In this document: positions 2,208-15,035 of the stretch, piece after piece
Layout: each line of letters begins with the position of its first letter
Position numbering within the stretch: the first letter of the stretch is position 1
NCBI GenBank assembly: GCA_947037025.1
Contig: CAMQSU010000003.1
Span: forward strand, 662 to 64,661
DNA length: 64,000 nt
Direction of reading: 5' to 3'
From: an uncultured Clostridia bacterium
GTDB lineage: Bacteria > Bacillota > Clostridia > Christensenellales > UBA3700
Position numbers and translations under genes: made by a program
Notes under the pieces: model-generated
What the model saw: the letters and a program-made list of their open reading frames with translations, nothing else
The model's database searches: none
What the model was told of the DNA's origin: nothing

Positions 2208-2265
2208 ATAAACAATGTTGCAATAATAAAATTTAGTAAAATTGCAGTACAAAAGGAGGATCTTT

Positions 2266-3879
2266 ATGAGCGATAAAGGGATAATACTATTAATTTTCGG
2301 CTTATATCTACTACTTATGGTAGGCATAGGTTTTATATTTTATAGAAAATCAATGTCATCATCAACCTACATGCTAGGCGGAAGAAGTCTAAATCCTTGG
2401 GTTACTGCTTTTTCAGCGCAAGCATCTGATATGAGCGGCTGGTTGCTTACAGGACTTCCGGGACTATGCTGTCTGGGCATTGCCGCTGGCAGTGTTGCAG
2501 GTATTAAGGAATCAATATTTACCGCAATCGGACTATTTATAGGTACCGCTGCTAACTGGATATTTGTAGCGAAGCGACTTAGAGTGTATACAGAGGTTGC
2601 CTCAAATTCAATCACTGTCCCAAGTTTCTTTGCAAACAGATTCGATGATAAAAAAGGTATCCTTCAAGCAATATCAGGAGTTGTAATATTATTCTTTTTC
2701 ACATTCTATGCTGCGTCAATGTTCTCAGCTGGAGCGAAAATGTTTGAAACAATATTTGGACTTGACTATCACTTAGCACTATTAATCGGTGCAAGCATTA
2801 TAGTTCTATATACATTATTAGGTGGATTTTTAGCAGTTTCATGGACTGATCTAATTCAAGGACTAATTATGTTTTTTGCACTTATTATCGTGCCAATCTT
2901 TGTTATGCGAGGGTTTAGTGACGCAGATTTCAGTGCTATGGGCGAGATAGGTAATGCTATTTCTAATTTACTGCCACAACAAGGCGAGGCGTTTACATGG
3001 ATAACTATTGCAACAGCACTTAGTTGGGGTCTTGGTTACTTTGGTATGCCGCACGTCCTTGTAAGATTTATGGCAACAAAAAACAAAAAAACAATTAAAC
3101 CTGCAGCAATAATAGCGTTAGTGTGGGTTGCAATTACAATGGCTTGTGCTATCCTTATAGGTATTGTAGGGCGAGTTGCAGTTGGAGATGGACTTACTGA
3201 TGCAACATCAGAAACAGTTTTCATGCAGTTAGTCATGAATTCATTTGGGCCAATTGTTGCGGGACTTTTGCTCTCTGCAATACTTGCAGCTATTATGTCA
3301 ACGGCAGATAGTCAGTTACTTGTTGCAAGTAGTTCGTTTGCAGAGGATATCTACAAAAAGCATCTACGCAAAAATGCAACAGATAAGGAAGTATTATTTG
3401 TATCAAGAATGACAATCATAGCAGTATCAGCAGTAGCAATATTGTTAGCACTTGATCCTGAGTCAAAAATATTTGAGCTTGTAAAATACGCATGGGGCGG
3501 ATTTGGAGCATCATTCGGGCCACTGGTAATATTCTCTCTATATTCAAAAAAAATAAAGTTCAGCGGAGCAGTAGCGTCAATCGTAACTGGTGCAGTAACT
3601 ACTATAGTATGGCGATATGGATTAAGTCACTTAGGCGGAATCTTCCTAATATACGAACTGATCCCTGGATTTATTCTATCATCCGCAGCATTATGGATAG
3701 GGTCATTATGTGACAAGCGTCCAATTAGTGATAAGATGGCAACAGATTATGATAATTTTAAAATAGCATTAAAAGATAAATCAGATGATAATAAGATTGA
3801 AGATGATCAAAATTCGGATTGCGATGTAGAATCGGATAATGAGCAAATGATGTCAGCTGATATTAATGCAAATAATTAA
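2266..3879 (+). CDS. putP: Sodium/proline symporter (SSS family)
   Basis: SAQASDMSGWLLTGLPG, WGLGYFGMPHVLVRFM, AAIMSTADSQLL; start placed at ATG after AGGAGG. Confidence 0.93.
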   Translation: MSDKGIILLIFGLYLLLMVGIGFIFYRKSMSSSTYMLGGRSLNPWVTAFSAQASDMSGWLLTGLPGLCCLGIAAGSVAGIKESIFTAIGLFIGTAANWIFVAKRLRVYTEVASNSITVPSFFANRFDDKKGILQAISGVVILFFFTFYAASMFSAGAKMFETIFGLDYHLALLIGASIIVLYTLLGGFLAVSWTDLIQGLIMFFALIIVPIFVMRGFSDADFSAMGEIGNAISNLLPQQGEAFTWITIATALSWGLGYFGMPHVLVRFMATKNKKTIKPAAIIALVWVAITMACAILIGIVGRVAVGDGLTDATSETVFMQLVMNSFGPIVAGLLLSAILAAIMSTADSQLLVASSSFAEDIYKKHLRKNATDKEVLFVSRMTIIAVSAVAILLALDPESKIFELVKYAWGGFGASFGPLVIFSLYSKKIKFSGAVASIVTGAVTTIVWRYGLSHLGGIFLIYELIPGFILSSAALWIGSLCDKRPISDKMATDYDNFKIALKDKSDDNKIEDDQNSDCDVESDNEQMMSADINANN

Positions 3880-3966
3880 CAAAAATTGCAACTTACGGCA
3901 TACATCAAATAGAGCAAGTATTAATTACTAGTATTAAAATGTAAGCTTAATAATTAATTGTAAAAT

Positions 3967-3995
3967 AAAAGATGACTTAACAGTCATTTTTTTTT
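3967..3995 (+). terminator. Intrinsic terminator of putP
   Basis: ATGACT-taac-AGTCAT plus long T-run. Confidence 0.75.
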
Positions 3996-4194
3996 GCGTT
4001 TTGACATACAATATTGTGGGCGGCAATAATTAGTGTATAGACTGAAATAGACTAATAAAGTTACTAGTTTCCGCATTTTGCTCTGCTGTATTATCAAATA
4101 CATGTATAAATTGTAGCTAAACTCTGCTAAATCAGGGCAAAACGATGTAATTTGCTACACTTATGTAAATTAATTGTAAATTTCAGTTTTCCTA

Positions 4195-4224
4195 TTGACA
4201 ATATTCAATTGCGTATGCTAGACT
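4195..4224 (+). promoter_or_regulatory. Sigma-A promoter driving a gene-less region
   Basis: TTGACA (4195-4200) and extended -10 TGcTAGACT (4216-4224), 18-bp spacer. Confidence 0.7.
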
Positions 4225-4736
4225 ATATGTAAGAAACAAACTCGCCATTCGTGAAAGACAAGTTTTCAGATAAAACTGAAATGTCTGAGTGGGGGATTGG
4301 CTTTAGAGGATACAAAATCTAAAGTTCTGATTACAAGTAGCAATGCTTGTGATAAATTATTTGATTACAAATGAGTTAGTAACCATATAGCGGACTTGTA
4401 AATTATTGCAAAATACGCAAATGTATGAAGGAACTCGATTAAGAGATAATGGGGAAAATCGTTCTCTTAAACAAAGGCAATACCAACTTGCAAAAACTGA
4501 GTGTTTTATAAACTAAGTTTAGCTTGGCAGTACTGTCTAACAAATCAAAGTGCTTTATTGCAAATGAAGTAAGACGTTATTGTAATTGTGAATAGTCACA
4601 AATAGAAAAACATCTTGCATCGAATTGAGTTTTTGATTAGTCGAATTCTCAAAATAAAAATAAAAATATTAATGTCAAATTAAAATTAAAGTGAACATAA
4701 AAATTGAACATGAAAATAAAATAAATAATTATAATT

Positions 4737-4904
4737 TTCGGCAACTGCCGATTAGACTGAGAGAGCTTGAGACGAAGTGACCGTAGCCCAAATGACTAGA
4801 GTTAGAGTCTAAGTGCATGCATTTTTTAAATTTGTATAGCGAAGTGACCGTAGTCCAAAAAGACAAGGGTTTGAGTCGAGGAGTCCGAGGGGCTTGCTCC
4901 AGCC
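4737..4904 (+). repeat. Structured domain copy 1 (two internal CGAAGTGACCGTAGCC..GAC..GGGTT.GAGTC units)
   Basis: Colinear similarity to 5134-5310. Confidence 0.85.
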
Positions 4905-5133
4905 TAAATGACAATACCTGTCATTATAAAATTCAATTAATATTACAATTAAAGTGATAATGGTAATTAAAATTTGAAGCAAAATATATTTGCAGAGTAT
5001 AAGGTGTAATAAAGAATGCGGATTTGTATCAAAAATGGTTCAAAAATATCGCTAATTACACATAAAACTTAACTCGATTCAGTGAGTATAGAAATAATCT
5101 ATATCACGCATTTATAATAAAGAAAGAGCAAAA

Positions 5134-5310
5134 TTCGGCAATTATGCCGTCAGACGGAGAGAGTTTGAGACGAAGTGAACGAGACCTACATGACGCAGGG
5201 CGAGTGTCTAAATGCCGTTGTAAACTGTATATTAGTTGCAATGAGCGAGTGACCGTAGCCTATATGACGACAGGGTTAGATTCGATGAGTCCGAGGGGCT
5301 TACTCCAGCC
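5134..5310 (+). repeat. Structured domain copy 2
   Basis: Shares CGGCA/TGCCG hairpin, GAGAGAGyTTGAGACGAAGTGA, GTGACCGTAG and GAGTCCGAGGGGCTTrCTCCAGCC with copy 1. Confidence 0.85.
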
Positions 5311-5552
5311 AAAAACAAATAAGTTAAGAATTATATAATAGAGGTTTTTCTCTAAGATAAGATTGTCGCGAAAATCTTATCAGATAATTAAAATAAAAAT
5401 ATAAGCATAGTTATAAATAATCTTCACAAGCTGACATGATTATGGCAGCATAATAATTAAGAAGCTTAACTATAACCAGCTTTTACAACTGAATATATAA
5501 GTTATTGATAATAGTAATTTGTTAATTACTGAAAATTTCAAGAAACGAAATA

Positions 5553-5594
5553 AAGATTACCCACAAGCATTATGCTTGTGGGTAATTTTGTTTT
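5553..5594. terminator. Strong, probably bidirectional intrinsic terminator
   Basis: ATTACCCACAAGCA-tta-TGCTTGTGGGTAAT perfect 14-bp stem, T-rich downstream and A-rich upstream. Confidence 0.88.
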
Positions 5595-5691
5595 ACACAT
5601 TAAATGCAGCTATTTTAACTGCGCATAATATGAATTTAGCATTTATATTTAAATTGATATGCTACTAAAAAAACTAGCAGTTTATATGATC

Positions 5692-5815
5692 ATTTTGCAC
5701 ATTTTCTACTTATTTTTGCTCATTTATTGCATGTTTTTTAGGTGTTTTTGCACGTTTTTTGCATGTTTTCTGCACGTTTTTTACGTGTTTCTACATGTTT
5801 ATTTAGCCATAATTT
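5692..5815 (-). repeat. Phased A-tract array (~10 units of ~11 bp, consensus AAAAAACRTGC on minus strand)
   Basis: Read directly; same consensus as 48453-48550. Confidence 0.8.
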
Positions 5816-5835
5816 TAGGCATTTCGGCTAATAAA

Positions 5836-6144
5836 TTATTTAGCTTTTGTTTTGCACTTAGTATGCATCATTTTATCTCCAACAGTTATATGCTCAGCTG
5901 CACATTTGTTGCTTTTGTTATGCATACATTCAGTGCTGCCGCACTCAATAAAAGTGTCGTCATTATCTGAGTAATCAAACTCAGCAGCAGTCTCCATATT
6001 GATAAACTCTTGCTCAATTACACCATTTTCACGGCGTAATTTTGTTGCACAATTACCATGTTTATCTACATTGATAATTCCTGCGCGGCAATGACAGCCT
6101 TCATTAAATTCACAGTTGCTTGTTGTACATTTTAATCCTTTCAT
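5836..6144 (-). CDS. Small Cys-rich protein with two DUF1540-like repeats
   Basis: Two C-x4-C-x2-N-x3/4-C-x-A-x2-I-x-V...C-x-T motifs; GGAGG RBS. Confidence 0.85.
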   Translation of the reverse strand: MKGLKCTTSNCEFNEGCHCRAGIINVDKHGNCATKLRRENGVIEQEFINMETAAEFDYSDNDDTFIECGSTECMHNKSNKCAAEHITVGDKMMHTKCKTKAK

Positions 6145-14959: not shown

Positions 14960-15035
14960 GCCTTAATAGCTCAGTTGGTAGAGCATGCGGCTGTTAACCG
15001 CAGGGTCACAGGTTCGAGTCCTGTTTAAGGCGCCA
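14960..15035 (+). tRNA. tRNA-Asn (GTT)
   Basis: GCCTTAA/TTAAGGC acceptor stem, TGCGG-CTGTTAA-CCGCA anticodon arm, GGTTCGAGTCC T arm, encoded CCA. Confidence 0.97.

What the first reader, a model, noticed from the sequence alone, without database searches (positions are those of the whole stretch)
4195..5594. Stand-alone ~1.35-kb transcription unit with no gene: candidate large structured ncRNA of unknown family
Seen: after the putP terminator comes a TTGACA / extended -10 TGcTAGACT promoter, about 1.35 kb without an RBS-backed ORF, and a perfect 14-bp terminator shared with the convergent DUF1540 gene. The interval is packed with hairpins, e.g. TTTCAG/CTGAAA inside AGACA/TGTCT, CTTTAGA/TCTAAAG, ATTACAAGTA-GCAA-TGCTTGTGAT, TTAAGAGA/TCTCTTAA, TTGTGA/TCACAA, AATGACA/TGTCATT and GATAAGATT/AATCTTATC. 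The GNRA tetraloop and G-U pairs favour a plus-strand RNA. It also holds a duplicated GC-richer domain. Known: Firmicutes carry large ornate ncRNAs (OLE, GOLLD, ROOL, raiA), but I recognise none of them here, nor tmRNA, RNase P, 6S or group I/II intron motifs. Inference: this is an independently transcribed, modular RNA. It is not a leader, because no gene follows on this strand.
Basis: partly seen in the sequence, partly recalled or inferred. Interest (0 to 1): 0.88.

Follow-up and report, generated by a model that had tools for sequence, protein, structure and literature searches.

The report
Long modular non-coding RNA gene candidate
A 1.4-kb stretch with no gene, lying between a proline transporter gene and a small cysteine-rich protein gene, looks like a large folded RNA gene built partly from repeated modules; one sister species has it too, but nobody has yet seen the RNA itself.

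Summary
Window 4195-5594 has a sigma-70-type promoter, no credible ORF, a 14-bp bidirectional terminator and two paralogous GC-richer domains. It lies in the longest ORF-free stretch of the 1.62-Mb assembly, rank 1 of 1061. Rfam 15 gives no match.

The key new result is a syntenic locus in one congener, G004, out of 8 searched. It has the same promoter blocks, the same terminator with compensatory stem changes, two conserved 5' hairpins (H5, H6), and two domains closed by the same helices. One G004 domain has expanded to 6.2 tandem 57-nt units. The two loci share no ORF, and the locus is single-copy in each genome. Folds favour the plus strand.

The other 7 congeners lack both putP and this interval. 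No homologue turned up in 74 family genomes, 401 order genomes, the GTDB or JGI pattern scans, phages or plasmids.

Best reading: a lineage-restricted, independently transcribed ncRNA of about 1.4-1.7 kb with repeated structural modules, possibly a multivalent scaffold or sponge. Transcription is not shown, and covariation rests on two species.

The parts
2242..3879 (+). Upstream gene: sodium/proline symporter PutP
   Evidence: TIGR02121 scores 560.9 bits, above its cut-off of 515.5. Pfam SSF. An 81%-identical orthologue occurs only in G004 among the 8 congeners.
3969..3997 (+). Weak terminator-like hairpin after putP: a 6-bp AT-rich stem followed by a run of T
   Evidence: Read directly from the sequence. 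The terminator scan did not list it, because it has fewer than 3 G-C pairs. G004 has a similar hairpin plus T-run at the same place.
4195..4224 (+). Sigma-70-type promoter: TTGACA, 18 nt, TG-n-TAGACT; predicted start near 4231
   Evidence: Conserved in G004 in 27 of 35 aligned columns, including exact blocks of 10 and 12 nt over the -35 and extended -10 boxes.
4229..4480 (+). 5' structured region (hairpins H1-H6)
   Evidence: minimum free energy -63.3 kcal/mol, z = -5.12, 0 of 200 shuffles as stable. The minus strand gives -45.8 kcal/mol.
4330..4353 (+). 10-bp hairpin capped by a GCAA tetraloop; species-specific
   Evidence: G004 has a different hairpin at the aligned place.
4373..4436 (+). 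H5: four-tier hairpin, conserved in G004
   Evidence: independent folds of the window sequence (z = -2.20) and the G004 sequence (z = -3.80) give the same outer stem, middle stem, GCG/CGY stem and apical stem, although the stem letters differ. On the minus strand z is -0.31 and -0.87.
4439..4472 (+). H6: hairpin AAGAGA...UCUCUU with a GGGRAAA-containing loop
   Evidence: G004 has two copies (L027 5760-5721 and 5545-5513). A decayed direct repeat of its 5' half lies at window 5071-5099 (family D6).
4641..4735 (+). AT-rich linker
   Evidence: It is not alignable with G004.
4736..4908 (+). Repeat-module domain A: P0 hairpin, closing helices P1a/P2/P3 and two about 50-nt sub-units
   Evidence: GC is 0.46.
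4909..5133 (+). Linker between the domains; includes the hairpin 4907-4925
   Evidence: No conserved feature was found here.
5134..5314 (+). Repeat-module domain B, a paralogue of A
   Evidence: GC is 0.48. P3 reads UGAA/UUCG here against UGAC/GUCG in domain A.
5315..5555 (+). 3' region, with the hairpin 5356-5381
   Evidence: inverted repeat I8. Only weakly alignable with G004.
5556..5594 (.). Bidirectional intrinsic terminator
   Evidence: Conserved in G004 with both sides of the upper stem changed.
5595..5835 (-). Long 3' tail of the convergent DUF1540 gene, carrying degenerate about 11-nt repeats
   Evidence: family D1; the contig of run X3 has two 11-nt insertions here.
5836..6144 (-). 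Convergent gene: DUF1540 protein, 102 aa
   Evidence: PF07561, 47.1 bits. Orthologues at 67-69% identity occur in the other 7 congeners.

Best explanation
Window 4195-5594 is a single-copy gene for a long non-coding RNA read from the plus strand.

Proposed layout (inferred from sequence and comparison):
- A sigma-70-type promoter starts transcription near 4231.
- No plus-strand terminator-like site occurs before the bidirectional hairpin at 5556-5594, so the product would be about 1.36 kb. In the sister species G004 it would be about 1.69 kb.
- The RNA would be structured islands joined by AT-rich linkers: a 5' region with conserved hairpins H5 and H6, then two repeat-module domains.
- Each domain starts with a small hairpin (P0). 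It is closed by pairing its first 5' strand (GAC-GARR-UGAC) with its last 3' strand (GUCN-4 nt-GUC).
- The interior of each domain repeats the same strands, so the same helix / purine-rich loop / helix junction recurs. The window would have about 4 such junctions and G004 roughly twice as many (an estimate from reading the repeats, not a counted result). G004 domain 1 grew by tandem duplication of a 57-nt unit.

Proposed function (inference only, about 0.3): the repeated junctions are equivalent binding or assembly sites, so the RNA acts as a multivalent scaffold or sponge for a still unknown protein, or for itself. Module number would be free to change.
For: Gene-free and exceptional:
- It lies in the longest ORF-free stretch (no ORF of 80 aa or more in any frame) in the assembly, 1782 nt, rank 1 of 1061.
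- A six-frame comparison of the two loci gives no match longer than 12 aa among the 25 best-ranked rows printed.

Conserved as a unit:
- G004 has putP, then the interval, then DUF1540 in the same order.
- The promoter is shared in 27 of 35 columns, with exact 10- and 12-nt blocks.
- The terminator is shared, with both sides of the upper stem changed.
- The order 5' region, domain, linker, domain, 3' region is the same.

Structure kept through sequence change:
- H5 folds into the same four tiers in both species although the outer and middle stem letters differ.
- P0 is CGGCA/UGCCG, CGGC/GCCG, an 8-bp AAUGCU-type stem and AGGC/GCCU in the four domains.
- On three domains aligned to model R1, 97% of 67 cells pair and 3 pairs change on both sides (P2 G-C to U-A, P3 C-G to A-U, one in P1b). 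Sliding the partners by 1-3 columns drops pairing to 22-48%.
- R1, built from the window's two copies only, finds G004 domain 2 full length (21.4 bits, E 0.0014).

Strand:
- The plus strand folds better in all 8 elements tested, for example full length -329.8 against -288.1 kcal/mol, and G004 -388.9 against -345.9.
- H5 z-scores are -2.2 and -3.8 on the plus strand against -0.3 and -0.9 on the minus strand.
- Several conserved helices use G-U pairs.

Not mobile, not known:
- Single copy in both genomes.
- No Rfam family matches.
- No phage or plasmid match beyond a 72-nt AT-rich chance hit.

Composition: the plus strand has G 256 against C 181. From established knowledge of Rho, which loads on C-rich, G-poor RNA, this would disfavour premature Rho termination. 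That is inference.
Against: - No transcript has been observed.
- Only two species carry it, so covariation is thin. In one search, 19 of 500 shuffles reach the observed values, and that alignment was fitted to the model.
- Helix P1b is poorly supported. It largely fails in G004 domain 1 (read), and the X3 contig carries T5165A, which would break one of its pairs.
- Single-domain folds are not significantly more stable than shuffles (z = -1.2 to -1.6).
- Mean z over the G004 locus is the same on both strands (-1.11 and -1.03).
- G004 domain 1 has more G-U pairs on the minus strand (20 against 10).
- Near-identical 57-nt units (95%) are what plain DNA slippage would give, with or without RNA function.
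- No conserved loop motif typical of a known RNA-binding protein was recognised.
- No antisense target for the unit core was found (3 reverse-strand matches in G000 against 7 for the control).
- The sponge or scaffold function has no direct support.
Confidence: 0.55

Rival explanations
1. Several short RNAs, or a regulatory 3' region, rather than one long RNA. The conserved promoter would make only a short 5' sRNA (H1-H6). The domains would then be separate sRNAs, or would act with the convergent DUF1540 mRNA through the shared terminator.
For: - The conserved islands are separated by unconserved AT-rich linkers.
- TATAAT-like boxes sit just upstream of the P0 hairpins; for example, a promoter-like site at 5089-5118 (10 of 12) lies before domain B.
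- DUF1540 has an unusually long 3' tail that ends at the same hairpin.
Against: - No plus-strand terminator-like site lies between 4231 and 5556.
- Promoter-like hits are at chance density in this AT-rich DNA.
- Only the 4195 promoter is conserved as exact blocks.
- Both species keep the same order of parts between one promoter and one terminator.
Confidence: 0.15
2. A functionless long spacer. The interval would be decaying DNA plus a DNA-level tandem repeat (a minisatellite). The shared blocks would be leftovers of common descent.
For: - Distribution is very narrow: 2 of 9 genus genomes. None turned up in 74 family genomes or 401 order genomes.
- Most of the interval is unalignable between the two species.
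- The 57-nt units are 95% alike, as expected from recent slippage.
- The same genome has another, unrelated 57-nt array in a different long ORF-free stretch.
Against: - The flanking proteins are only 74-81% identical, so neutral DNA should be scrambled. Yet the promoter, H5, H6, the domain ends and the terminator persist.
- Paired positions change together.
- The two-domain layout is kept although the domain sequences have diverged.
- GC-richer islands are maintained in a genome of about 30% GC.
Confidence: 0.15
3. A ToxI-like repeat RNA, that is a type III antitoxin or other processed array. The tandem units would be cut into monomers that each bind a protein encoded elsewhere or since lost.
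For: G004 has 6.2 head-to-tail, near-identical units between a promoter and a terminator. The window has 2 + 2 diverged units.
Against: - No toxin-sized ORF follows on the same strand; the next gene is convergent.
- The neighbours give no defence-system hit, except for the generic HTH protein.
- The window's units are diverged, and they pair with each other across units rather than as separate monomers.
- Large conserved non-repeat parts such as H5 and H6 have no counterpart in type III systems (the latter point from recall).
Confidence: 0.07
4. Hidden small protein gene(s). The conserved blocks would encode short peptides missed by ORF length cut-offs.
For: Short ORFs exist on both strands. 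The G004 array carries a 134-aa repetitive ORF on the opposite strand.
Against: - No peptide longer than 12 aa is shared between the loci among the 25 best-ranked rows printed, and the few short matches lie over nucleotide-conserved blocks.
- Copies A and B differ by indels that are not multiples of three, and copy A has stops where B is open.
- The 134-aa ORF follows trivially from a 57-nt (19-codon) unit repeated without a stop. It has no ribosome-binding site that I could see.
Confidence: 0.05

Closest known systems
Large 'ornate' bacterial ncRNAs of unknown or partly known function (OLE, GOLLD, ROOL, raiA)
   Same: - A long gene-free unit with its own promoter and terminator.
- GC-richer structured islands in an AT-rich genome.
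- Many hairpins and no coding potential.
- Function not deducible from neighbouring genes.
   Different: - No covariance-model match to any of them, or to any other Rfam 15 family, even at E <= 10.
- The predicted length of 1.36-1.69 kb exceeds theirs (their sizes are recalled).
- It was found in only two congeneric species.
- Part of it is built from repeated modules whose number differs between species.
- It is chromosomal, next to the str-operon region (fusA-tuf), not in a prophage.
Type III toxin-antitoxin antitoxin RNAs (ToxI, CptI, TenpI)
   Same: RNA made of head-to-tail direct repeats between a promoter and a terminator. The units are near-identical in G004.
   Different: - No adjacent toxin gene.
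- The units are 50-57 nt and are embedded in closing helices.
- There are large non-repeat parts.
- The window copy has only diverged 2 + 2 units.
Multivalent protein-sponge RNAs (CsrB/RsmY/RsmZ type)
   Same: Repeated stem-loop modules on one transcript. Module number varies between species. It is a stand-alone gene with a terminator.
   Different: - No GGA-in-loop motif is conserved across the modules (read).
- Such sponges are not known in this kind of organism (recalled).
- The partner protein is unknown.

Membership tests
OLE / GOLLD / ROOL / raiA / HEARO and all other Rfam 15 families | Match to the family covariance model at or near its gathering score | tested here: not met
   (gathering threshold, whole window): only a tRNA at 14960-15032. 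(E <= 10, 3880-5900): 11 weak hits, the best 25.7 bits, most of them on the terminator hairpin and none on the 5' region or the domains; the same result for the G004 locus.
Riboswitch or other cis-acting leader | A regulated gene downstream on the same strand | tested here: not met
   no plus-strand ORF longer than 64 aa before the terminator, and the next gene (DUF1540) is convergent. G004 shows the same.
Type III toxin-antitoxin (ToxIN/CptIN/TenpIN) | Tandem near-identical RNA repeats | tested here: inconclusive
   G004: 6.2 copies of a 57-nt unit with 95% matches. Window: only 2 + 2 units, with 75% mean column identity across the four units.
Type III toxin-antitoxin (ToxIN/CptIN/TenpIN) | Toxin endoribonuclease gene directly downstream on the same strand | tested here: not met
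   no such ORF; no PADLOC hit for DUF1540, the 235-aa protein, the 302-aa protein or the nitroreductase.
CsrB/Rsm-type sponge RNA | Many GGA motifs presented in hairpin loops | tested here: not met
   The unit alignments and the G004 units show no GGA conserved across modules.
CRISPR array | Identical short repeats alternating with unique spacers | tested here: not met
   In G004 the whole 57-nt unit repeats, with no unique spacers. The window has no regular array.
Mobile element (MITE, IS end, REP-like) | Multiple dispersed copies in the genome | tested here: not met
   Single copy in G000 and in G004. In the own genome R1 finds only the two domains at E <= 0.01 (one search adds one 10.6-bit hit at E 0.63, taken as spurious).
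Functional structured RNA (generic criterion) | Statistically supported covariation across many lineages | tested here: inconclusive
   Three pairs changed on both sides in 25 pairs over 3 sequences, with 19 of 500 shuffles reaching this. The H5 architecture is kept in 2 species. There are too few sequences for R-scape.
Functional structured RNA (generic criterion) | Observed transcript | not testable with these tools
   No RNA run is listed as holding the stretch. The one lay of reads gave nothing usable.

The most novel reading that the evidence does not exclude
This is a new class of very long (1.4-1.7 kb) bacterial non-coding RNA, in which a conserved 5' core is followed by domains made of repeated structural modules. 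Module number expands and contracts between species (2 + 2 against about 7 + 2). The modules would act as equivalent docking or self-assembly sites. That would make it a bacterial counterpart of repeat-module long non-coding RNAs of eukaryotes, and possibly a relative in kind, not in sequence, of the self-assembling ornate RNAs.
Probability: 0.3. Interest if true: 0.8.

Novelty: new variant of a known kind. Interest (0 to 1): 0.6.

Why it matters
Bacterial non-coding RNAs longer than a kilobase, apart from ribosomal RNA, are very rare, and each new class has opened new biology. If transcribed, this locus would be among the longest.

It would also show something not described for the known ornate RNAs: structural modules that multiply by tandem duplication while the helices that close the domain are kept. 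That gives a natural series (4 junctions in the window, roughly twice as many in G004) for testing whether valency matters.

It also shows that such RNAs can be confined to a few uncultured gut species, where searches that depend on covariation cannot find them. The limits are equally clear. Its narrow spread means little general biology may hang on it, and without RNA data it remains a candidate.

Tried and rejected
Homologue searches that found nothing:
- BLAST of the 1.4 kb against 41 genomes (40 relatives plus G000) gave only the G004 terminator and two short chance hits.
- Model R1 against 61 genomes (60 relatives plus G000) gave only the own genome and one 16.8-bit hit at E 0.36.
- The domain-start pattern in 74 family genomes hit only G000 and G004. 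Two further hits carried 1-2 mismatches, and the reversed control pattern also gave 2 hits.
- The H5 pattern in 401 order genomes hit G000 plus one GC-rich chance match. G004 was not in that sample.
- IMG/VR patterns gave 0 and 4 hits. The GTDB two-anchor pattern gave 3 hits, all in GC-rich phyla. The JGI metagenome pattern gave 8 hits. R1 confirmed none of these.
- The exact patterns would have missed a homologue as diverged as G004's own domains, so absence elsewhere is not shown.
- Plasmids gave one 72-nt hit at 77% identity in an insect-symbiont record, taken as AT-rich chance. Phages gave none.

Expression:
- No RNA holder was listed.
- Reads were laid from two RNA runs that share the species label. 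X8 laid none. X11 laid 4 very short pieces, about 75 letters in all, which is within what chance gives for AT-rich DNA. I count this as no evidence either way.

Alignments that failed:
- Global MAFFT alignments of the two loci mis-register the helices, so RNAalifold on them found nothing useful. I relied on independent folds and on the model-based alignment.

Ideas considered and dropped:
- Independent per-unit hairpins instead of cross-unit pairing. In domain B the 5' strand of unit 1 (UGAA) matches only the 3' strand of unit 2 (UUCG).
- Hammerhead-like, K-turn, sarcin-ricin and tetraloop-receptor readings of the purine-rich internal loop. The letters are not conserved across the domains.
- An RNase P-like reading of the domain's 3' end. 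There is no Rfam hit.
- An antisense target for the unit core. Matches are no more frequent than for the control.
- An iteron-type replication origin. There is no rep gene, the position is a syntenic chromosomal one, and the skew does not switch.
- A defence island.

Literature: three full-text searches listed nothing about an RNA next to DUF1540 or putP, or a tandem-module ncRNA of this kind. I saw only listings and abstracts and read no paper. Supplements were not consulted. The statement that this RNA is not described rests on Rfam 15 and these three searches only.

Full report
**What is there.** Between the stop of a PutP sodium/proline symporter gene (2242-3879; TIGR02121 560.9 bits) and the stop of a convergent DUF1540 gene (5836-6144) lie 1956 bases without a credible gene. 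Inside the flagged 4195-5594, the longest plus-strand ORFs are 64, 49, 46 and 36 aa. In a crude six-frame survey of the whole 1.62-Mb assembly (73.6% complete), this stretch is the longest with no ORF of 80 aa or more: 1782 nt, rank 1 of 1061.

Promoter-like matches alone are at chance density in this AT-rich DNA (19 against 14.5 +/- 3.6).

The first 252 nt after the predicted start fold far better than shuffles (z = -5.12, 0 of 200). Over the whole unit the excess is modest (mean z -1.93 on the plus strand, -1.09 on the minus strand).

Two GC-richer domains, A (4736-4908) and B (5134-5314), are 82% identical. Each is itself made of two units of about 50 nt that share a core around AGUGACCGUAG.

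**It is no known RNA.** Rfam 15 at gathering thresholds finds only a tRNA elsewhere in the window. At E <= 10, the 11 hits on 3880-5900 are all far below threshold. Most sit on the terminator hairpin, and none lies on the 5' region or the domains. The homologous locus in G004 gives the same blank.

**A second species has it.** Among 8 congeners, only G004 has a true PutP orthologue (81% identity; the others have 30-34% paralogues). There the gene order putP, long gene-free interval (about 2.2 kb), DUF1540, 235-aa gene, HTH, mutarotase-like gene is the same.

BLAST aligns little beyond the terminator, but reading the two intervals side by side shows a common plan:
- The promoter is shared in 27 of 35 columns, with exact blocks of 10 nt over the -35 box and 12 nt over the extended -10 box.
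- The terminator is shared, with its upper stem changed on both sides.
- Two hairpins of the 5' region (H5, H6) recur.
- A first repeat domain, a linker, a second repeat domain and a 3' region follow in the same order.

Model R1, built only from the window's domains A and B, finds G004's second domain full length (21.4 bits, E 0.0014). G004's first domain begins and ends like the others, but holds 6.2 tandem copies of a 57-nt unit that are 95% alike.

The other 7 congeners have the DUF1540 gene directly convergent with a lipoprotein gene of about 700 aa (337 aa in G008 and G006, and a different 328-aa gene in G002). The gap there is about 70-680 nt, and they have neither putP nor this interval. 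In both carriers the block sits downstream of fusA-tuf and a nitroreductase gene.

**RNA, not protein, and not a mobile repeat.** A six-frame comparison of the two intervals gives no shared peptide longer than 12 aa among the 25 best-ranked rows printed. The few short matches lie over nucleotide-conserved blocks. Copies A and B differ by indels that break any frame. A 134-aa repetitive ORF on the opposite strand of the G004 array follows trivially from a 19-codon unit without a stop. The locus is single-copy in both genomes and has no phage or plasmid relative.

**Evidence for structure.**
- H5 (window 4373-4436; L027 5832-5763) folds independently in both species into the same four tiers: outer stem, middle stem, a GCG/CGY stem and an apical stem. 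Energies are -12.7 kcal/mol (z -2.2) and -18.4 kcal/mol (z -3.8). The outer stem reads GAGUU/AACUC against GAGGAA/UUCUUC, and the middle stem CAUAUA/UGUAUG against AUAUGUU/GACAUGU. The reverse complements are unremarkable (z -0.3 and -0.9).
- H6 (AAGAGA...UCUCUU with a GGGRAAA loop) occurs once in the window and twice in G004.
- Each of the four domains is preceded by a small hairpin of unrelated sequence (P0: CGGCA/UGCCG, CGGC/GCCG, an 8-bp AAUGCU-type stem, AGGC/GCCU).
- In each of the four minimum-energy folds, the domain is closed by pairing its first 5' strand (GAC-GARR-UGAC) with its last 3' strand (GUCN-4 nt-GUC).
- On the three domains that align to R1, 97% of 67 cells pair. Three pairs change on both sides: P2 G-C to U-A in G004, P3 C-G to A-U in domain B, and one pair in P1b. 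Sliding the partners by 1-3 columns lowers pairing to 22-48%.
- The P3 change in domain B also decides between two models. The 5' strand of unit 1 pairs with the 3' strand of unit 2 (nested), not with its own unit.

Caveats:
- With three sequences, 19 of 500 shuffles reach the observed covariation, and the alignment was fitted to the model.
- P1b is doubtful. It largely fails in G004 domain 1, and a variant in the X3 contig (T5165A) would break it.
- Single domains are not significantly more stable than shuffles (z -1.2 to -1.6).
- The G004 locus as a whole shows no strand difference in z.

**Strand.** The conserved promoter points rightwards. The plus strand folds better in 8 of 8 elements. 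H5 is significant only on the plus strand, and conserved helices use G-U pairs. The plus strand is purine-rich (A 534, G 256, C 181, T 393), like the sense strand of the neighbouring genes. No plus-strand terminator-like site lies between 4231 and 5556, so a single transcript of about 1.36 kb is the simplest reading. This is inferred, not seen.

**How it may work.** Because the units repeat both strands of the closing helices, the same junction (helix, purine-rich 4 x 4 loop, helix) recurs inside the domains. I estimate about four junctions in the window RNA and roughly twice as many in G004; this count comes from reading the repeats and is not a counted result.

Domains A and B resemble each other more than either resembles a G004 domain. 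R1 scores them at 200 and 213 bits against 21 bits for G004 domain 2, though R1 was built from A and B, so those two scores are high by construction. The two-domain plan is nevertheless shared. That suggests the copies evolve in concert within a genome, while paired positions stay complementary.

A transcript that displays many equivalent structured sites, whose number can change, fits a multivalent scaffold or sponge for a protein, or an RNA that assembles with itself. I put this at about 0.3. Nothing here identifies a partner:
- No conserved loop motif of a known RNA-binding protein was recognised.
- No antisense target was found.
- There is no defence or toxin context.

**Comparison with known systems.** It works most like the large ornate ncRNAs (stand-alone, long, structured islands, function opaque) and like repeat-built RNAs (ToxI-type antitoxins, Csr/Rsm sponges). 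It is a member of none:
- The covariance models do not match.
- No toxin gene follows.
- No GGA loops are conserved.

**Verdict.** The feature is real and probably a functional RNA gene (0.55). It is new as a family, but it is confined, as far as these searches reach, to two uncultured congeneric species, and it remains untested at the RNA level.

Noticed in passing
window 5695-5801: Degenerate repeats of about 11 nt (TTGCACGTTTT-like) lie in the 240-nt tail between the DUF1540 stop and the shared terminator. The contig of run X3 carries two extra 11-nt copies (inserted behind 5743 and 5787) and 8 substitutions, so copy number varies between strains.
   Followed up: partly
window 4001-4030: A second, better-scoring promoter-like site (TTGACA, 18 nt, AATAAT; 11 of 12) lies directly after the putP hairpin, about 190 nt upstream of the conserved promoter. 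I could not recognise it in G004.
   Followed up: partly
window 2242-5594 and loci L055-L061: putP and the non-coding interval are present or absent together. Both occur in G000 and G004, and neither occurs in the other 7 congeners. In most of those a lipoprotein gene of about 700 aa (337 aa in two of them, and an unrelated 328-aa gene in G002) faces the DUF1540 gene.
   Followed up: yes
L027 5054-5458 (plus strand of that locus, antisense to the RNA): A 134-aa ORF made of 19-aa repeats runs through the G004 57-nt array. It has no counterpart in the window and no visible ribosome-binding site. It is most likely an artefact of a repeat whose length is a multiple of three.
   Followed up: partly
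G000 contig C26:13626-13819: Another long ORF-free stretch of the same genome (C26:12632-14123, 1492 nt) holds 3.4 copies of an unrelated AT-rich 57-nt unit with 94% matches. The equal period may be coincidence.
   Followed up: no
G000 contig C15:11441-13218: The second-longest ORF-free stretch (1778 nt) contains tRNA-like sequences, judged by eye. One looks as if it carries an insertion. I did not check it with ARAGORN.
   Followed up: no
window 5071-5099 against 4432-4460: A decayed direct repeat (72%) of the 5' half of H6 and its left flank lies just upstream of domain B. G004 likewise has a second H6 just upstream of its first domain, and two copies of a UAAGAAGUUGUGA block (L027 5622 and 5005). 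This hints at an older duplication of a larger segment.
   Followed up: partly
window 14960-15032: A tRNA gene. It is the only Rfam match at the gathering threshold in the 64-kb window.
   Followed up: no
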